DNA of 64,000 bases from an uncultured virus (IMG/VR IMGVR_UViG_3300009684_000030) (Duplodnaviria; Heunggongvirae; Uroviricota; Caudoviricetes): the IMG/VR virus record IMGVR_UViG_3300009684_000030, one strand, 5' to 3'. Under the pieces are notes generated by a model. The model did not search any database, had not been told where the DNA came from, and worked only from the letters and a program-made list of their open reading frames with translations. Positions 37,073 to 61,952 of the stretch are shown one piece after another. Each line of letters begins with the position of its first letter. Within the stretch, counting starts at the first letter, position 1. The translations under genes were made by a program, and so were the position numbers.

Positions 37073-39085
37073 ATGGATAAAACAGAAAAGATAAGTTTAA
37101 AAACAGTTATTGATGAGATTAAGAATACTAATCACATCAATGAACTTATCTTTGATAATGTTGATACATTCACATCAAAAGTATTATCACCTAAACCAGA
37201 TGTTTTGGGTGATAAAAATACCGAACATCTTAGTTCTATTGATACTAGTATTAATTCAATAAAAAAAGTTCTTGATGATACTCTAAAGATTATTAAAAAT
37301 ATTGGTTTTGGTGGTACTTCTGGAGCTAAAAAAGGTACATCATATAGTATCTTTGATAAGATGCTATCACCATTTAAAACCATTATGAATATTCCTAAGA
37401 ATATTATGGGTGGTATTAAAAATATTATTAATATGCCTCATCGTATTATTAGTAATATTCTAAGTGTGCCTAAAAAAATACTTGGCTCGGTTGGTGGTTT
37501 ATTTGGATTTGGAAAAAAGAATAAAGAGGGTAAAGGATCATCTGGATATGAAAAAACAGTTATTTCTCAATTAACAAATATATCTAATACCTTACAAAAT
37601 ATTCTTGGCTCTCTTGGGGGTGCTGTTCATTCTACCCCACCGGCAGCTGCTGGAGTTCCGGCTGTTCATTCTACCCCACCGGCAGCTGCTGGAGTTCCGG
37701 CTGCTCATATTCCAGTAGTAACATCAGCACCAAAAGGCATAACTGGTTTTGGAAAAGGTATCTCCAATGTTGGAAAGGGTATAGGAGCTGGAATTAAAGG
37801 TACACTTACTGGATTATCATTAGGATTACAATCTCTTGGTAATATGAAAGTCTTGAAGGGCATTGGTGCACTGGCATTATTAGGTATAACAATGATACCA
37901 TTTGCAAAATCATTAGATATGATGAAGTCTGTTGGTATTGGTACTATTGGTGTTTTTGCCACCGGCCTATTAACACTTGGGGTTGCAGCAAAGTTATTAT
38001 CATCTCCTACATTACTTCAGGGGGCACTTACTATAGCAGCCCTTGGAGCATCAATAATCCCCCTTGCATATGCCTTGGATATGATGAAATCGGTAGGTAT
38101 TGAAACTATAGGAGTTCTTGCTGCAGGAATAGCAGCACTAGGTGTAGCTGCTGCCGTTCTTGGCATACCTGCAGTCGCCCCATTTATTTTCCTAGGTGCT
38201 CTTGCAATAGGAGCCCTTGGAGCAGCATTAATACCATTTGCGTATGCAATGAATTTAATGAAGGATATTAACTGGGATGAGTTTATGAAAGCCGGTGATG
38301 CTTTAACCGCATTTTCGATTGGTATAATTCCTCTTGCTACCGCAGTTCCATTAATTACAGCAAGCGCAATCGGATTAGGATTATTTGCTGGGGGTGTTAA
38401 ACTTCTTAGAATGGCCTTGGGCGATGATAATGGTATAGGTATTACTAACTTTATGGATGGATTAAGCTCTATGACTAAAGTCCTTGATCCAGATAAATTA
38501 ACAGGTTCTGCTATTGCTCTTGGAAAACTAAGTTTGGCAATTATAGCACTTGGAGGATCTCAAGCATTATCTGGTATGGCTGGATTCTTTGGAAAAATAT
38601 TTTCAATGGGATCTGATAATCCAATTGAGCAATTAATTAGATTATCAAAGGAAGGATATAATCTAATTCAAATCGGAGACGGAGTTCAGAAAATAGCAGA
38701 TGGTATTAAAGCATTGGCTGACGCATCGAAAGGTATCCTTGCTCTTAATGATCTGGATATTAAAAAACTTCAAGAGATTGCAAAGTTCGAAGATGCTCGC
38801 CAAGCAGGGTATACCTCATGGAATGATTATGAAGGACATAATTTTGAATTTAGAGCTAAAAATACTGGCAATGAAGCAGCTGCAATTCAAGGAGTGACTG
38901 GAACAGCCGGAGTTGAATTAAACCAGGCTGCTAGTATTACTGCCGGTGCAGGTGGAACTGTTATTGTTAATAATATTGGAGGTAGTACTAATATATCATC
39001 ATCATCATCCAATGTAAATACATCAACAAGTATATTAGCACCATCTCCTCAAGGTTCTGCAATGTATAATATTTACAATGAATGA
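37073..39085 (+). CDS. Tape-measure-like protein (gp29 position)
   Basis: 670 aa, long Ala/Gly/Leu-rich helical repeats (PFAKSLDMMKSVG / PLAYALDMMKSVG), directly after gp26/gp51. Confidence 0.6.
   Translation: MDKTEKISLKTVIDEIKNTNHINELIFDNVDTFTSKVLSPKPDVLGDKNTEHLSSIDTSINSIKKVLDDTLKIIKNIGFGGTSGAKKGTSYSIFDKMLSPFKTIMNIPKNIMGGIKNIINMPHRIISNILSVPKKILGSVGGLFGFGKKNKEGKGSSGYEKTVISQLTNISNTLQNILGSLGGAVHSTPPAAAGVPAVHSTPPAAAGVPAAHIPVVTSAPKGITGFGKGISNVGKGIGAGIKGTLTGLSLGLQSLGNMKVLKGIGALALLGITMIPFAKSLDMMKSVGIGTIGVFATGLLTLGVAAKLLSSPTLLQGALTIAALGASIIPLAYALDMMKSVGIETIGVLAAGIAALGVAAAVLGIPAVAPFIFLGALAIGALGAALIPFAYAMNLMKDINWDEFMKAGDALTAFSIGIIPLATAVPLITASAIGLGLFAGGVKLLRMALGDDNGIGITNFMDGLSSMTKVLDPDKLTGSAIALGKLSLAIIALGGSQALSGMAGFFGKIFSMGSDNPIEQLIRLSKEGYNLIQIGDGVQKIADGIKALADASKGILALNDLDIKKLQEIAKFEDARQAGYTSWNDYEGHNFEFRAKNTGNEAAAIQGVTGTAGVELNQAASITAGAGGTVIVNNIGGSTNISSSSSNVNTSTSILAPSPQGSAMYNIYNE
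37622..37699 (+). repeat. Perfect in-frame 39-bp tandem duplication
   Basis: gctgttcattctaccccaccggcagctgctggagttccg x2 (AVHSTPPAAAGVP x2). Confidence 0.95.
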
Positions 39086-39351
39086 CGATTATTGTAAATT
39101 AACATATCAAATTCTTCTGTATTCATTACTCCCATAGAAGTAAACTTTACAGTACCGTCTATATCATAAAATACCGTAAATGGAATTGATTGAATCCGTG
39201 CTGCTAAAATAGTATCGAGGTTATCTAAATTATCAATATCAATAATTTGTAACTCAGTTGAAAATTTATTACAATACGTCTCAACTACCTTCATATATTT
39301 AAGGCAATCTACGCAATCTAAAAGTGTATATAGTTTAATTAAAAAGAGCAT
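39073..39351 (-). CDS. Thioredoxin/glutaredoxin-like protein
   Basis: CVDC motif, IIDID, IQSIPFTVF (cis-Pro motif); start uncertain (39351 or 39366). Confidence 0.65.
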   Translation of the reverse strand: MLFLIKLYTLLDCVDCLKYMKVVETYCNKFSTELQIIDIDNLDNLDTILAARIQSIPFTVFYDIDGTVKFTSMGVMNTEEFDMLIYNNRHSL

Positions 39352-39368
39352 ATAGTATATACACACTT

Positions 39369-39405
39369 AAAAACGGCGTCCTACAATAAAGTAAGACGCC
39401 GTTTT
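39369..39405. terminator. Intrinsic terminator downstream of gp32 (likely bidirectional)
   Basis: AAAACGGCGTC..GACGCCGTTTT inverted repeat flanked by A/T runs. Confidence 0.75.
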
Positions 39406-39427
39406 ATTATTTATTTTTATTAATAAA

Positions 39428-40876
39428 TTACTGACGCGCTAATTTAGCGAAGTATGATAAACTCGTATCATCATCTTCTTCCGTTTCTGAAGAAGCAGTT
39501 TCTCCTACCCAAGGGGCATCATCTGATTCTTGAATAGGCTCAGGTGCTGTACGGCCGACTGATGATCGGGTTGGTTCAATAATAGTAGGACCAACTGAAT
39601 TACCAGGGGCTGCTTCACCTAGGACTTCATATAACTTACGGCGAAGTTCATCATATGTTTTATAGTTTGCAGGATCAATGAAATCATTCAATGAATAAAT
39701 TCCTTCATAGACTTCCTTAAGGCGTTCTTCATCTCCTCCAAACAATTCAGAAACATTATCGAATTCGGACTTATCATAATTACGATAACCTTCCACATTA
39801 CGAATCTTCAATTTGAAGTTCGCACCTAACCAGAGATCAAATGGATTAGTTGGAGTTTCACCTGGGAATTGAGGCTGCATAACATCCATGATCTTATCAA
39901 AGATCTTCTTTCCGAACTTAAAGAGAAATTGCTTTCCTTCATTAGCTGGATTGGCTGGATCTGAAATAACCAGAATGTTTGAAACATAATGAAGGCGACG
40001 CTTACGATCGCGAACACCATCCTTATCAGATTCAATACCTGAGTTCCACTTTGCTGCATTATATTCTCCTCGTTTATGTTCAAGAGAGTTCGTTATTTCT
40101 CTCCCTGGGATTTTACCCAACTGATACTTTCATATCAGACCAGACTATATCACAGTCCTCAAGGGACTCTCGGCATTTCGTACCACTTGGTACTACTCCT
40201 TTACGGATAGTCGTTGAACCTTCTTCATTTAATATTATCATATCAAATAAAGCTTGGCTGCTGATTGCCCAATTTAACAGATTGTTAGAATTCACTAAAC
40301 CTAAACCATTTCTAACATCATTACCTTTTAGTACTAATGTTATTATTTTATAACCATTTTTAATAGCACCTAACATTTTATCTTCAACATTTTTAATATG
40401 CAGATTATATGTATATGTACTTTTTATTAGTTAATAGGTTTGTATATTGAGTCATACTTTATTTATAATATGACTGAATTTAATACTTGTAAGTGAAGCT
40501 ACTGTTAACTCTAAGGGGTTTCCAGCAATTAACCGAATTTGCAAAAGACGTTACCGTCTTAGGCCGCTAGAAAATTAACGGGGTCGGGTTGACCAATTGA
40601 GGTCAAGGAATTCTCGATGTACCATCTTCCGGTTGGACCTTTAAAGCCGTGATCCCAGAAACGAACCCATGGAAGATCTTCACCCTCCTTGGCTGGAAGA
40701 AAACGAAACACTGCGTATCCGTTTCCTGCTTTATCTACTGCTGGAGCCCATAGACGGTCATCACCGTAAGTTTTAGCGGCTCCACCTGTTTTTTCTGCTG
40801 CAACTACTAGTTTGTTAATTGCGGCGTCTCTATTCTTCTTAAGGGAATCAAACCCTCCTGATGTATTATTTTGCAT
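39428..40876 (-). CDS. gp32: Single-stranded DNA-binding protein gp32, two exons (40876-40578 and 40070-39428; 313 aa spliced)
   Basis: DDRLWAPAVDKAGNGYAVFRFLP..HGFKGPTGRWYIENSLT..DPV joined to GEYNAAKWNSG..FGKKIFDKI..GANFKLKIR..NYDKSEF; acidic tail ending SYFAKLA. Confidence 0.93.
40071..40577 (-). ncRNA. Group I intron (IA2-like), 507 nt
   Basis: Starts TAA after a U.G pair in P1 (CCGU|UA..UAGCGG) and ends in G (AAACG). P AATTGCTGGAAA, Q AATCAGCAG, R TTCAACGACTA, S GATATAGTCT; P2, P7.1, P7.2, P8 and P9 (GAAA) hairpins visible. Removal restores the gp32 frame. Confidence 0.92.
40405..40455 (-). pseudogene. Probable remnant of an intron-encoded GIY-YIG homing endonuclease
   Basis: MTQYTNLLTNKKYIYI* resembles the TNxxNxKxYIG segment of GIY-YIG nucleases; preceded by TATAAATA inside a hairpin. 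Confidence 0.5.
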
Positions 40877-40949
40877 TGTATGTTGTTGTATTTTTGTTTT
40901 GTATCATATGGAAGAAATTAAATTATCTAGTCTCTTCCGTATAAAGTAT

Positions 40950-40978
40950 ATTATATATTATTTGTTCACCGTTGTAAA
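40950..40978 (-). promoter_or_regulatory. Sigma70-like promoter for gp32
   Basis: TTTACA-17-TATAAT. Confidence 0.7.
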
Positions 40979-41605
40979 CAAAGAAATAATAATATCTCGG
41001 CTCTTATCCAAGTTCATTTCTGAACAAAGGAAAGGGCTATATTTAAGAATCCTCCGATTTATGTCAGACATAATATCGAGCGGATCATTAAGAGTATTAT
41101 TTATATCTTTTGAAAATGATACTAAATTCTCAAGGATAACCAGAGACTCTAGTGATAGGGTCTTCTTTTGATATAGTGTATAGATTAGAGGAAAGTTGGA
41201 TCTATCTTTGGGAAGAATCGCCTCATCAAAGTGAAGATGAAATTTTTCACATTCATTCAACATATTACTCATTTCAGATTTAAAAGTATAGTCAAGGCGC
41301 TGAATCTTTGCGCACCATTGATGATATGTATTATCATTCATACCGCCAATCCAAGTATTTCCTTCAAGGATATTTGCTAGGAAATATAGGATAAGATCAT
41401 TTTTCTTAGGATACGTTTTTGATAACTTCTCAAGGGACCATTTATTCCTTGCCTCTGTTACACTACCTCTTTTAAGTTTAGGTCCTTTAAAATTAAACTT
41501 AAAAGCATCATATTTAGATCCAGATTTGAAGTGTAGTGATATTGACATATACACTTGCCATACATCCGATGGTGCTATTCCAATATCTTTACTGAGAACT
41601 ATCAT
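40958..41605 (-). CDS. gp59: Helicase loader gp59
   Basis: YMSISLHF....YDAFKFN; YFLAN; W...IQRLDYTFKSE; SLESLVIL; gene order 33-59-32. Confidence 0.85.
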   Translation of the reverse strand: MIVLSKDIGIAPSDVWQVYMSISLHFKSGSKYDAFKFNFKGPKLKRGSVTEARNKWSLEKLSKTYPKKNDLILYFLANILEGNTWIGGMNDNTYHQWCAKIQRLDYTFKSEMSNMLNECEKFHLHFDEAILPKDRSNFPLIYTLYQKKTLSLESLVILENLVSFSKDINNTLNDPLDIMSDINRRILKYSPFLCSEMNLDKSRDIIISLFTTVNK

Positions 41606-41853
41606 GCAAACATTATTGAATTTGATGAACGAGGAATAAGATGATTCCGCATTGCTTCAGCTTCAAGTTTATCTTTAAGAGGTCCTGTGATTAACTTTGA
41701 AATATCCTCCGGATCAACGCCGAGATCATTACAAATACGAATAAGAGCCTCAATATATTGCATACCTTCATTATGTACTAATGCCTCCGTTTTTGCAATT
41801 AATTCAGTTTTAGTAATGACGGGAATAAATTTTTCAATATCTAATGTGCTCAT
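41602..41853 (-). CDS. gp33: Late transcription coactivator gp33
   Basis: YIEALIRICNDLGVDPEDISKLITGPLKDKLEAEA; likely start MSTLDIEK. Confidence 0.85.
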   Translation of the reverse strand: MSTLDIEKFIPVITKTELIAKTEALVHNEGMQYIEALIRICNDLGVDPEDISKLITGPLKDKLEAEAMRNHLIPRSSNSIMFA

Positions 41854-41860
41854 AGTTTGT

Positions 41861-43078
41861 TTATAGTTTTGTTTCAATAACCTTCAGAATAATGCAATGC
41901 TCGTTAAACCTGCCAGAAGCTTTCTTATGAACAACCTTAACTCCATCGAAGATCTTATCAAGCTTCTTGGGAGTTGCCGCGAGGATACCCAGGAGAACAT
42001 CCTTGGGCTTCCGTAGAGTTATATTAAAACTTGCATCCATATCCCAGTCTTGAAGGCTTGAACCTTTAACGGCAAATCCAGGAGATCCTTTTGCAAAGTA
42101 TACAGCCAATGTACGATATTTGGTATTAAAAACATACAATCGTTGTGCTCCTGGAATTCTGATAGGAGAGATAGAATCAAGATTAAATGTTGAAGAGTTA
42201 ATCTGATACTTAAGCTTTAGGATCTGTTTAGTCGCATCCTTAGTCTTTTTAATACGAGGCTTACGGTCAGCCATTTTTGCCTTTGAATGCATTCTTACAT
42301 CAGATAGCATAACGTCAAAACACTTTACTATCTTCTTCAGATCTGGTTTTGATAGGTAACTATAACCCTCAACTGCTTGATTACAGTTCTTTTCAAGAGC
42401 ATCATTATATCCACTCTGATGATATTCCAACCAATCAATAATCATCTTACAGCCTTGAGCAGGAACCTTATATGTCTTTAGCATAGCTGCAACATTAATA
42501 GTTGCAACACCCTGTGATGTATCCACCCAGCGATCAATTAGCTCATCCAGAACGATTAGGATGTCCTTACGAACATTTTCACGAATACGATCAAGAGGTG
42601 ATTGCCTAACTACCTTAACCTTAGCTTCTACAGTAGAATCATCTATAGCATAAGCACCAAGAAATACCAAAGCAGCATCAATTCCTTCCTTCACAACTTT
42701 CAGATCTGACTTTGCAATCGGAGGAGTTTCATGGAATGGCAATTGATTATAATACTCTTGTGCCTTGGGGTGAATATGAGGCATACCCCTATCAAAACAG
42801 CGGATCAATTTTCCAACGGTAGTCGGAAGAACAGATGGAGATGCTTCCTTAATTCTAGAAATTGCATCCTTGGAATAGTTCTGCACCTTCATCCATGTAA
42901 GGACAAGAGGTTTTAGATCAGGAGATGCCAGATAATAGTTATAGAAGTTCAAAGCGCGAGATCGCTTAGTATAGAATTTCTCAACATCCCAGGATTCCCA
43001 TCCATGAAAATCGGGTTCTTCCCCAGTATATTTAAAATCCGGGGAGTGAACATTACCGGATTTGTTAAAGGCGCTCAT
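41861..43078 (-). CDS. Hypothetical T4-like phage protein (405 aa)
   Basis: RALNFYNYY, IPGAQRLYVFNTKYRTL, TLRKP, GRFNEHCIILK; upstream of gp33. Confidence 0.7.
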   Translation of the reverse strand: MSAFNKSGNVHSPDFKYTGEEPDFHGWESWDVEKFYTKRSRALNFYNYYLASPDLKPLVLTWMKVQNYSKDAISRIKEASPSVLPTTVGKLIRCFDRGMPHIHPKAQEYYNQLPFHETPPIAKSDLKVVKEGIDAALVFLGAYAIDDSTVEAKVKVVRQSPLDRIRENVRKDILIVLDELIDRWVDTSQGVATINVAAMLKTYKVPAQGCKMIIDWLEYHQSGYNDALEKNCNQAVEGYSYLSKPDLKKIVKCFDVMLSDVRMHSKAKMADRKPRIKKTKDATKQILKLKYQINSSTFNLDSISPIRIPGAQRLYVFNTKYRTLAVYFAKGSPGFAVKGSSLQDWDMDASFNITLRKPKDVLLGILAATPKKLDKIFDGVKVVHKKASGRFNEHCIILKVIETKL

Positions 43079-50088: not shown

Positions 50089-50715
50089 TTAGATGATGTG
50101 TTGATCTACCGATCCCATTGCAACCTTTAGATGAGGCTGGCCTCCAATAATGCGAACATAGAAGTAATTACGAAGAATTTTCAAACGATTATATACAGCT
50201 TGGTCAGCCTTATCAAGGTTGTCATTTACATATTCTTGAGTAGGAACAATAACGGTATTATCATGTATAATATGTGATACTTCTGATGGAGTTATTAGAT
50301 AAGGTTCAATAACTTCAAATGGGGCGGATTTCATCATCATCACAAGAGCACCTTTTGATTTCTCGCCCCAACTTATTTTAAGTTCGGATTTAAATACATC
50401 AGATAAAATCTTCTTGGCTTGCATAGACCCATCGGTTACATATGCAACTGCTTTTCGGCCGCCTTTATCTTTATACATTGCTACAACTAAAACCTTTCCA
50501 TTAGTTTCATATACTTTCCAAAATGGAATATTCTCTATCATATCCTCCTTGGTTTTGAATCCAGAACCATGAATTCCTCCAATCTTTGCATATGAGGATT
50601 GAAGAATATCCCAAACTCGATCTACAATTTTTTCACGATCGGAGATAGAATCCTTTCCAATGAAGTTTTTAAATCCTTCATTTAATTCTGTATATTTCCC
50701 GAATGATAAAATCAT
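50089..50715 (-). CDS. Hypothetical protein, possible internal head protein
   Basis: N-terminus MILSFGKYTELNE; GATAAATA late-like promoter just upstream. Confidence 0.55.
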   Translation of the reverse strand: MILSFGKYTELNEGFKNFIGKDSISDREKIVDRVWDILQSSYAKIGGIHGSGFKTKEDMIENIPFWKVYETNGKVLVVAMYKDKGGRKAVAYVTDGSMQAKKILSDVFKSELKISWGEKSKGALVMMMKSAPFEVIEPYLITPSEVSHIIHDNTVIVPTQEYVNDNLDKADQAVYNRLKILRNYFYVRIIGGQPHLKVAMGSVDQHII

Positions 50716-61307: not shown

Positions 61308-61952
61308 TTAGTATCCCCATGCTTCCAAGGAATATTTAAACGGATTTCCTTCGATATTTCTTACAGCTTCTAGCATCTCACCAACTAATTCACGGGTTTC
61401 TTGCTGTGCATCCGGTTTCAATCTTAGAGCAAATAAATGCATCATGGCATGAAAACTTCCCGTCCAGATAAACTTAGTTTCCAAACATAGCGGTAGATGA
61501 ATTCGGCACATTTCTTTAGCCACACCATAATCAGCCATTTCTTTATATAACTCTTTTGACTGTTCAATAATATTATTAATACGGTCAATGAAGTATTTAT
61601 TTTTATCTTCTGATAGATTACCCGCAGATCCTTGTTTACTGTCCTTAGATTGGAATCTAAGAACTTCTGGTTTCCAATATGTATCAGAAAAATCTACATA
61701 TCTCCCGCTGATGCTGTTCCTAGCCCAACCTATCTGATGTGTGAATAATTGTCGCTCTACAAAAATAGGACACGAAATTCTGAATTGTAATTGTGCATGT
61801 CTAAATGGGCTAGTATGCTTATGTTCAGCAAGATATTTCAATAGTTTTCCATCACTCTCACTTACTTCAGCAGATTCCTTATCAAAAGAAACTCTGGCAA
61901 TATTAGCGATCATAAGATCATCTCCAAAATGTTTAAGCAATTCTATATTCAT
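61308..61952 (-). CDS. thyX: FAD-dependent thymidylate synthase
   Basis: ARVSF, HTSPFRH, PIFVERQLFTH...NSISGRY, LRLKPDAQQETRE. Confidence 0.92.
   Translation of the reverse strand: MNIELLKHFGDDLMIANIARVSFDKESAEVSESDGKLLKYLAEHKHTSPFRHAQLQFRISCPIFVERQLFTHQIGWARNSISGRYVDFSDTYWKPEVLRFQSKDSKQGSAGNLSEDKNKYFIDRINNIIEQSKELYKEMADYGVAKEMCRIHLPLCLETKFIWTGSFHAMMHLFALRLKPDAQQETRELVGEMLEAVRNIEGNPFKYSLEAWGY

What the first reader, a model, noticed from the sequence alone, without database searches (positions are those of the whole stretch)
40071..40577. Group I intron inside the gp32 ssDNA-binding protein gene
Seen: gp32 is broken between ...QPDP-V and GEYNAAKW.... The intervening 507 nt start with TAA after a U.G wobble in P1, end in G, and contain P/Q/R/S cores plus P2 (GTAA loop), P3, P7.1, P7.2, P8 and P9 (GAAA loop). 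Splicing GT|A restores Val100 and a 313-aa ORF. Known: T4 introns (td, nrdB, nrdD) are subgroup IA2, and phage group I introns mostly sit in nucleotide-metabolism and polymerase genes. I do not recall gene 32 as a described host gene. Inference: production of an essential, stoichiometric replication protein would depend on splicing.
Basis: partly seen in the sequence, partly recalled or inferred. Interest (0 to 1): 0.85.

Follow-up and report, generated by a model that had tools for sequence, protein, structure and literature searches.

The report
Spliced intron in phage gene 32
The gene for the single-stranded-DNA-binding protein of an uncultured T4-like phage is interrupted by a self-splicing-type (group I) intron whose precisely joined message appears in lake RNA; it is a worn-down copy of a mobile intron family that has invaded this essential gene in many phages, a home for such introns that I did not find described in print.

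Summary
Confirmed. Window 40577-40071 (minus strand, 507 nt) is a group I intron: Rfam RF00028 56.7 bits, with P1-P10 helices that covary across relatives. Removing it restores a 313-aa gp32. One lake RNA-library assembly holds both the intron-containing form and a contig joining 40578 to 40070 exactly (30 nt on the short side). No DNA run was laid, so an identical intronless sibling is not excluded. Eleven other distinct gene-32 introns of this lineage were found: nine at the same codon, one shifted 1 nt, one at a second site. Six carry an intact DUF7487 ORF with a Vsr/I-Bth0305I-like fold; others show frameshift or deletion. Intron-bearing gp32 alleles are not one clade (p-AU 1.9e-11). The site is T4 Val89; from a recalled, unverified 332-bp figure, T4's free-standing SegG would cut at the same spot. 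Ten literature searches found no gene-32 intron, but this scan noted gp32 introns twice before on other genomes. Known kind of element, unreported host gene and endonuclease family.

The parts
41602..41877 (-). gp33-like late-promoter coactivator gene (context)
   Evidence: phrog_254, E 1.4e-17
40958..41605 (-). gp59 helicase-loader gene (context; T4 order 33-59-32, here with no segG between 59 and 32)
   Evidence: phrog_269, E 1.4e-35; T4 map
40950..40978 (-). sigma70-like promoter consensus (11 of 12) upstream of gene 32
   Evidence: consensus scan only; 12 sites found against 9.7 expected, so not evidence of function
40877..40949 (-). gene-32 leader: hairpin followed by an unstructured A/C-rich stretch with no Shine-Dalgarno motif; candidate autoregulatory operator
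   Evidence: fold -12.2 kcal/mol; an A/C-rich stretch, often with a hairpin in front, is seen by eye in many of 15 relatives, start calls rough; role inferred from T4 (PMC535899 passages)
40578..40876 (-). gp32 exon 1 (99 codons plus 2 nt of Val100)
   Evidence: PDB gp32 hits E 2e-10
40071..40577 (-). group I intron, 507 nt, terminal G at 40071
   Evidence: RF00028 56.7 bits; joint skipping exactly 507 nt in RNA run X1
40564..40581 (-). P1 (last 4 exon bases with the guide sequence, U.G at the 5' splice site); the P1 loop is also the P10 partner of exon 2
40542..40563 (-). P2 with GNRA tetraloop
   Evidence: 7 of 9 pairs change on both sides among 6 introns; 0 of 500 shuffles reach the covariation score
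40531..40537 (-). P3 5' strand (partner 40177-40169)
   Evidence: 5 of 5 pairs kept in 9 of 10 introns, with compensatory changes; the L182 row was mis-anchored by my script
40523..40528 (-). P4 5' strand (partner 40263-40258)
40502..40518 (-). P5/P5a 5' strands (partners 40280-40268); the insert lies in the P5a loop
   Evidence: CM alignment, fold, compensatory changes read from the core alignment
40460..40467 (-). T4-type late-promoter motif left over in front of the lost ORF start
   Evidence: motif within the first 260 nt of 7 of 10 introns, at +106 to +111 in 4; genome-wide count is at chance level, 14 against 16
40113..40430 (-). C-terminal remnant (105 open codons) of a DUF7487 endonuclease-type ORF; begins at the catalytic Lys, lacks the N-terminal 230 residues with the PD and E catalytic residues; its last ~55 codons overlap the ribozyme core
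   Evidence: family profile positions 238-323 of 324, E 1.7e-22, sole hit in six frames of the window; alignment; 45% identity to P0045
40219..40258 (-). P6/P6a
40207..40212 (-). P7 5' strand (partner 40148-40143), guanosine-binding helix
   Evidence: 6 of 6 pairs in 10 of 10 introns, invariant
40180..40206 (-). P7.1 and P7.2
40154..40168 (-). P8
   Evidence: covarying pairs
40072..40140 (-). P9.0 (40140-40139 with 40073-40072), P9 (40138-40121), P9.1 (40119-40106), P9.2 (40105-40082)
   Evidence: both P9.0 pairs kept in 10 of 11 introns with 4 different dinucleotide pairs; P9 and P9.2 covary
39428..40070 (-). gp32 exon 2 (1 nt plus 213 codons and stop)
   Evidence: covered without mismatch by the joined RNA contig
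39370..39405 (-). 15-bp hairpin behind the gene-32 stop, terminator-like
   Evidence: z -7.5; not listed by the terminator scan

Best explanation
A functional group I (IA-type) ribozyme intron in gene 32 of an uncultured T4-like myovirus. SHOWN: sequence and structure of the core, splice sites, restored frame, a precisely joined form in an RNA library, and a same-site family in other phages. INFERRED from established group I chemistry: after transcription the guide sequence pairs with the end of exon 1 (P1), a guanosine bound in P7 attacks the U.G site, and exon 1 then attacks the terminal G positioned by P9.0 and P10. This gives the mRNA for full-length 313-aa gp32; unspliced RNA stops 6 codons into the intron. 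INFERRED history: the intron came in by homing driven by a DUF7487 PD-(D/E)xK endonuclease (Vsr/I-Bth0305I-like fold) encoded in the P5a loop behind a late promoter. After fixation the ORF was mostly deleted; only the part near or inside the ribozyme core remains. This copy still splices but can no longer spread by itself. It persists because only an exact deletion restores an essential gene.
For: CM hit. Covariation in P2, P3, P5a, P8, P9, P9.0. RNA run X1: 1 contig joins 40578 to 40070 with 0 mismatches over 639 nt of exon 2, and another contig runs from exon 1 into the intron with 0 mismatches. 12 distinct gene-32 introns including this one: 10 at the same codon position (one of them, L181, seen only at its 3' half), 1 shifted by one base, 1 at a second site. 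ORF state forms a decay series: intact in 6 (L165, L169, L171, L182, L387, L180), frameshifted in 1 (L233), internally deleted in 4 (window, L173, L177, L383), unknown in 1 (L181). ORF is Pfam DUF7487 (E 1e-13) and PHROG 15137 endonuclease; model pLDDT 89.5; best folds Vsr Z 10.0, rmsd 3.4, 116 aligned and I-Bth0305I Z 8.9, rmsd 3.3, 96 aligned; invariant E182, P219, D220, E231, K233. Seven intron-bearing gp32 alleles held together as one clade are rejected, p-AU 1.9e-11; the L177 allele is 94% identical to an intronless one.
Against: The RNA evidence is one assembled contig in one run with 30 letters on the short side (the tool asks for 31 to count a bridge), laid at 85% likeness, with no DNA run beside it; that run may come from the window's own source. 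No cleavage or self-splicing assay exists. Foldseek gave no match at E <= 0.001 and the family profile no PDB sequence hit. P10 pairing of each intron with its own exon 2 (mean 5.9 of 8) is only slightly above cross-pairings (5.1). A patchy tree also fits repeated loss, and the intronless rows were mostly chosen as relatives of the window's gp32.
Confidence: 0.88

Rival explanations
1. The intron is real but the joined contig in X1 comes from a co-occurring sibling phage that lacks the intron (exact loss, or not yet invaded), not from splicing.
For: No DNA run was laid and the tool gave no count of the joined form in other runs. A near precedent exists: L177's allele is 90% identical in DNA to intronless alleles with the same 4 bases at the site.
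Against: Exons in X1 have 0 mismatches to the window over 639 + 354 nt. The only viral contig with the exact first 25 nt of exon 2 is the intron-bearing one (1 of 1). The core helices are intact and covary, as expected under selection for splicing. Even under this rival the intron-bearing phage would have to splice to make gp32.
Confidence: 0.07
2. A gene in pieces: the intron is dead and the two halves are translated separately (105 aa plus an internally started C-terminal part) and assemble, as reported for a HEG-split ribonucleotide reductase (cited in PMC10448857, passage).
For: Both halves are open frames.
Against: The exact joint in RNA. The core is conserved and covaries in all copies. 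The long exon-2 ORF is only open upstream through intron P9.1-P9.2 sequence that differs among relatives.
Confidence: 0.02
3. [quoted passage not shown]
For: T4 gp32 is an autogenous translational repressor (PMC535899, passages). The ribosome acts as chaperone for T4 intron splicing (PMC3984707, passage). The leader has a hairpin plus an unstructured A/C-rich stretch. ORF-less copies persist in 4 lineages.
Against: No direct test. 156 of 158 related loci have no intron, so it is dispensable. Persistence of ORF-less copies is the ordinary late stage of the homing cycle.
Confidence: 0.1

Closest known systems
T4 td, nrdB and nrdD group I introns with I-TevI, I-TevIII, I-TevII (PMC2988022, passages and section 7)
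   Same: T4-like phage, essential DNA-metabolism gene, P7.1/P7.2 core, 3' core about 70% identical to nrdB/td intron cores, ORF behind a late-promoter motif, ORF decay as in T4 I-TevIII.
   Different: Host gene is gene 32. The ORF is PD-(D/E)xK type (DUF7487), not GIY-YIG or HNH. The ORF sits in the P5a loop and runs about 55 codons into the core (T4 ORFs in L6a/L9.1: recalled, not checked).
I-Bth0305I (PDB 3r3p), Vsr-like/EDxHD intron endonuclease (that it lies in a Bacillus phage recA intron is recalled)
   Same: Nuclease-domain fold, Z 8.9, rmsd 3.3, 96 aligned; encoded in a phage group I intron.
   Different: 21% identity in the structural alignment; no profile hit to any PDB sequence; conserved residues follow E..PD..ExK; N-terminal Cys/His-rich region; other host gene.
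T4 SegG, free-standing GIY-YIG endonuclease between genes 59 and 32 that targets gene 32 (PMC2988022 Table 1; PMC2330249 and PMC535899 passages)
   Same: Gene 32 is already a known homing target. T2 homology to T4 resumes 63 nt before the gene-32 start, and 332 bp from there is T2 nt 269, inside the Val codon (nt 268-270) equivalent to the intron site. The figure 332 is recalled from Liu et al. 2003, which was not held and not confirmed elsewhere.
   Different: SegG is not in an intron, belongs to another nuclease family, and is absent between genes 59 and 32 in this window.
Earlier notes of this scan e1-6342326 and e1-6064206 (gp32 introns with a nuclease ORF on other genomes; AI notes)
   Same: Same host gene and, by their titles, the same ORF type.
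   Different: This copy has lost the ORF; RNA evidence, decay series, second site and shifted site were obtained here. Whether their loci are among mine is not known.

Membership tests
Group I intron | Covariance-model score above the curated cut-off | tested here: met
   56.7 bits against 50. Relatives score 31 to 93 bits; long ORFs lower the score.
Group I intron | 5' splice site at a U.G pair in P1 | tested here: met
   10 of 10 introns; P1 is invariant, so no covariation support
Group I intron | Terminal G with P9.0/P10 3'-site pairing | tested here: met
   last base G in 11 of 11 (partly by selection of candidates); both P9.0 pairs in 10 of 11 with 4 pair types; P10 7 of 9 in the window, weak over cross-pairings
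Group I intron | P3-P7 pseudoknotted core with P4-P6 domain | tested here: met
Group I intron | Exons ligated in RNA at the predicted sites | tested here: met
   exact 507-nt joint in run X1; one contig, 30 letters on the short side, no DNA control
Group I intron | Guanosine-dependent self-splicing in vitro | not testable with these tools
   needs an assay
Subgroup IA (IA2) | P7.1/P7.2 between P7 and P3 | tested here: met
   class criteria as in PMC3984707 (passage)
Subgroup IA (IA2) | Best score among subgroup-specific models | not testable with these tools
   only the generic Rfam model is held
Mobile (homing) group I intron | Intact endonuclease ORF in this copy | tested here: not met
   only profile positions 238-323 remain; no other family copy in the window or in the 45-kb overlapping record; the rest of the genome is not held
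Mobile (homing) group I intron | Patchy presence at one site, with intact ORF in relatives | tested here: met
   6 intact ORFs among 12 introns; one clade rejected
Mobile (homing) group I intron | ORF product cuts the intronless allele | not testable with these tools
   needs an assay
EDxHD/Vsr-like homing endonucleases (relatives' ORF) | Vsr-like PD-(D/E)xK fold | tested here: met
   Z 10.0 to 1cw0 and 8.9 to 3r3p, top two of 48,161 chains; Foldseek E 0.044, prob 0.94 to 3r3p
EDxHD/Vsr-like homing endonucleases (relatives' ORF) | EDxHD active-site signature / sequence kinship | tested here: inconclusive
   invariant residues read E182, D220, E231, K233 with no conserved HD; no PDB profile hit; no residue-level overlay was made
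T4 gp32 family | Profile match and 33-59-32 gene order | tested here: met
T4 gp32 family | Cysteine zinc ligands flanking Val89 (ligand role recalled) | tested here: not met
   the window allele has no Cys at these columns, while L182, L233 and L383 keep C-P-V-C

The most novel reading that the evidence does not exclude
Gene 32 is a contested homing hot spot (the same Val codon hit by this intron family and, if the recalled distance holds, cut by T4 SegG), and the intron is wired into gp32's own feedback: when free gp32 silences translation of its mRNA, exon 1 is no longer cleared by ribosomes, splicing stalls, and the ribozyme acts as a second valve on the level of an essential replication protein.
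Probability: 0.1. Interest if true: 0.8.

Novelty: new variant of a known kind. Interest (0 to 1): 0.52.

Why it matters
It adds gene 32, an essential, abundant and self-regulating replication gene whose product is itself needed for homing (PMC2988022, passage), to the host genes of phage group I introns. It gives DUF7487 a concrete, testable role as an intron homing endonuclease with a predicted target. One locus shows the whole cycle: intact, frameshifted and deleted ORFs, a 1-nt shifted site and a second site sharing the same four exon bases. If the SegG coincidence is confirmed from the original paper, it would be a further case of a free-standing endonuclease and an intron converging on one site (the collaborative-homing premise). 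Practically, gene callers will mis-annotate gp32 in these phages as two fragments.

Tried and rejected
No whole genome is held for the window; the nearest record is a 45-kb contig identical over the locus, so it is not independent support. L167 is an intronless allele and L178 a chance match. GTDB genomes: 0 junction matches and 2 distant ORF relatives without gp32 or core motifs. The intact ORF has no tblastn match in 50,697 GenBank phage records, and neither the window intron nor L177 is covered to 80% by any record (60 of 212 and 60 of 435 rows seen). Run X2 (6% of words) laid one 215-nt exon-2 relative with 7 differences and says nothing about splicing. In X1 no contig covers 40071-40166 or most of the flanking genes; contigs cannot show absence, ends or level, so I draw nothing from this or from the depths (8.9 joined, 21.2 intron, 23.4 exon 1). 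Alternative cuts at 40571 or 40068 were rejected. The 87-aa ORF 40376-40113 has no family hit alone and is the remnant, not a gene. Of 54 P1-type motif matches 15 follow gp32 exon 1; the other 39 lie in other genes that I did not identify. The SegG distance could not be verified. A second AU test (window with L177) did not finish and was not repeated. Weak Rfam matches elsewhere in the window are far below cut-off. No tRNA. Look-up of earlier findings by the ORF sequence gave nothing.

Full report
OBSERVATION. The window is part of a T4-like myovirus: baseplate, tail tube, head closure, ligase, helicase, PhoH and ThyX genes, with the T4 order gp33-gp59-gp32 on the minus strand. Gene 32 is in two frames that match phrog_224 at profile positions 3-97 and 97-316. 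Between them Rfam RF00028 scores 56.7 bits, E 9.8e-12, the only gathering-level RNA hit in the window. Of 160 related loci, 158 hold both halves: 156 are uninterrupted with this codon spacing and 2 are one contig identical to the window.

RNA. Two RNA runs were offered and both were laid on 39000-41700 at 85% likeness. Run X1 (labelled lake water metagenome, assembled contigs) shows one joint, from 40070 to 40578, skipping exactly 507 nt. The joined contig matches exon 2 over 639 nt with no difference, and a second contig runs from exon 1 into the intron (40607-40167) with no difference. Limits: one contig, one run, 30 letters on the short side (the tool asks for 31 to count a bridge; 30 is what a 31-mer graph would leave at a branch, my inference), no DNA run, and the run may be the window's own source. 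An intronless twin is therefore not excluded. The only viral contig with the exact start of exon 2 carries the intron (1 of 1). X2 was uninformative.

FAMILY. A gp32-anchored motif found 7 viral contigs: self, 5 intron-bearing (3 distinct introns) and 1 intronless. A junction motif found 8 viral contigs, all intron-bearing including self, 5 metagenome records of which 4 are introns and 1 is chance, and 0 in GTDB genomes. The ORF alignment found 60 loci, 4 of them introns in gp32. A core 20-mer found 119 loci, 3 with gp32. A P1-P4 motif found 54, 15 directly behind gp32 exon 1. Distinct gene-32 introns: window 507 nt, L173 694, L165 1198, L169 1187, L171 1194, L177 349, L182 1276, L233 1265, L383 397 and L181 (3' half only) at the same codon position; L387 1196 nt one base upstream; L180 1147 nt at a second site about 50 codons downstream, T4 Arg138. 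Host gp32 proteins are 40-77% identical to each other and the intron cores 56-86%.

STRUCTURE. On 6 introns, P1+P2 pair in 93% of cells, 7 of 15 pairs change on both sides, and 0 of 500 shuffles reach the covariation score; slid controls pair in 24-48%. RNAalifold on the 3' half recovers P7, P8, P9, P9.2 and parts of P6a and P7.2, with double-sided changes in 20 of 43 pairs. P3 keeps 5 of 5 pairs in 9 of 10 introns (the L182 row was mis-anchored), P7 is invariant in 10 of 10, and both P9.0 pairs hold in 10 of 11 with four different dinucleotide pairs, which fixes the 3' site independently of the reading frame. P10 is plausible in the window (7 of 9) but barely above cross-pairings (5.9 against 5.1). 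All 11 introns with a visible 5' end follow the same four exon bases. Most motifs demanded this, but it also holds for 6 of 6 contigs, where the third Pro base was free, and for the 4 found without exon constraint. Only 5 of 115 distinct intronless contexts have these bases, so P1 appears to fix a synonymous position.

THE INSERT. The AT-rich stretch (23% GC) lies in the P5a loop. In relatives it holds a 300-345-aa ORF: Pfam DUF7487, PHROG 15137 endonuclease. A protein search gave 53 clusters, 51 of them 40-100% identical; 43 of 53 end in the peptide read through the intron core, so most are probably in introns of this lineage, but their host genes were not seen. The model (pLDDT 89.5) matches Vsr (Z 10.0, rmsd 3.4, 116 aligned) and the homing endonuclease I-Bth0305I (Z 8.9, rmsd 3.3, 96 aligned) best among 48,161 chains. 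Foldseek had nothing at E <= 0.001 and the profile no PDB sequence hit. The window keeps only profile positions 238-323 (E 1.7e-22), starting at the catalytic Lys, so the PD and E residues are gone; part of this similarity is forced by the RNA core, but codons 232-264 upstream of the core also match (48%). ORF state over 12 introns: 6 intact, 1 frameshifted, 4 internally deleted, 1 unknown. A T4-type late-promoter motif lies in the first 260 nt of 7 of 10 introns, as for the T4 intron endonucleases (PMC2988022, passages); across the window the motif is at chance level.

MOBILITY. In a tree of 82 rows (10 intron-bearing, 71 dereplicated intronless, T4; L383 and L181 not included) intron-bearing alleles are scattered. 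After dropping T4, L182 and L165 (long branch or cut exon 2), holding 7 same-site alleles together costs 149.8 log-likelihood units, p-AU 1.9e-11, with at least 4 changes. L177 is 94% identical in protein to an intronless allele. Sparse, scattered presence with intact nucleases fits homing; repeated loss is not excluded, and the intronless rows lean to the window's relatives.

THE SITE. It aligns to T4 Val89 in the C-P-V-C motif. The window's gp32 lacks these cysteines; L182, L233 and L383 keep them. T4 carries segG between genes 59 and 32, and SegG targets gene 32 (PMC2988022 Table 1; PMC2330249, PMC535899 passages). T2-T4 homology resumes 63 nt before the gene-32 start. I recall from the abstract of Liu et al. 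2003 that the SegG cut lies 332 bp from the segG insertion site; that lands on T2 nt 269, within the equivalent Val codon (268-270). The paper was not held and the number was not found elsewhere, so this is a lead, uncertain by the definition of the insertion site (T2 has about 35 unrelated bases there).

MECHANISM. Shown: anatomy, splice sites, joined RNA form, family, ORF decay. Inferred from established group I chemistry: two transesterifications give the 313-aa gp32 message; without splicing translation stops 6 codons into the intron. Inferred: entry by endonuclease-driven homing, then ORF loss. Confidence 0.88. Rivals: intronless sibling as source of the joint (0.07), separate halves (0.02), regulatory domestication through gp32 autorepression (0.10, compatible with the main reading).

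KNOWN OR NEW. Ten paper searches. Those joining group I intron with gp32, gene 32 or single-stranded DNA-binding protein listed 4, 13, 4 and 6 papers, none with a title or abstract start reporting a gene-32 intron; DUF7487 gave 0. I saw only listings for most. I read passages of PMC2988022 (also section 7), PMC535899, PMC12350094, PMC10448857, PMC12880540, PMC3984707, PMC11835236 and PMC2330249, and term-searched the supplements of PMC12350094 (one group II intron in a streptococcal ssb stop codon, not gp32) and PMC12880540 (file cut; first places only, showing full-length gp32-like proteins). Subscription journals, bioRxiv supplements and the intron database of PMC11835236 were not seen and could hold such a record. 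The intact ORF has no match in 50,697 GenBank phage records. Two earlier AI notes of this scan describe gp32 introns with a nuclease on other genomes; I consulted them after reaching the same reading, and they are not independent support.

VERDICT. Real, very probably spliced, a decayed member of a mobile intron family. Known chemistry and known life cycle; host gene, endonuclease family and ORF position not found in print. New variant of a known kind, interest 0.52.

Noticed in passing
L180:2332-3478: Second intron site in gene 32 (between Arg and Tyr codons, T4 Arg138, phase 0) by the same intron lineage, with the same four exon bases, a long P1 loop holding the late-promoter motif, no P2, and an intact ORF 29% identical to P0001.
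   Followed up: partly
L387 (= L306, L370, L394, L396): Intron inserted one base upstream of the usual position (phase 1, Leu codon): intron sliding or independent use of the same four bases.
   Followed up: partly
L363-L414 (39 of 54 loci): Introns with the same P1 type in other phage genes; upstream peptides look like ribonucleotide reductases, capsid and terminase-type proteins (my impression, not searched).
   Followed up: no
L225, L226: A distant DUF7487-like ORF next to a gp32 exon-2-like segment on the opposite strand, without intron core motifs; possibly a free-standing relative.
   Followed up: no
L332: 592-nt fragment with an ORF piece 63% identical to P0001 and a 68.9-bit group I core; host gene not visible.
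   Followed up: no
window 40877-40949: Gene-32 leader with a hairpin and A/C-rich repeats and no Shine-Dalgarno motif; similar A/C-rich stretches precede gene 32 in many relatives.
   Followed up: partly
window 50117-50301: Weak alpha-tmRNA match (21.4 bits, cut-off 50) inside an ORF; ARAGORN finds nothing; probably chance.
   Followed up: partly
window 61308-61952: Thymidylate synthase is ThyX (Thy1, E 1.9e-44), intact and intronless.
   Followed up: yes
L167:1-177 and L176:2084-2154: A permuted tmRNA (53 bits) near gene 32 in L167 and a tRNA gene directly upstream of gene 32 in L176.
   Followed up: no
window 37073-39085: 670-aa tail-module gene with a short duplicated Ala/Pro-rich repeat and no PHROG hit; position suggests a baseplate hub or tape-measure protein.
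   Followed up: no
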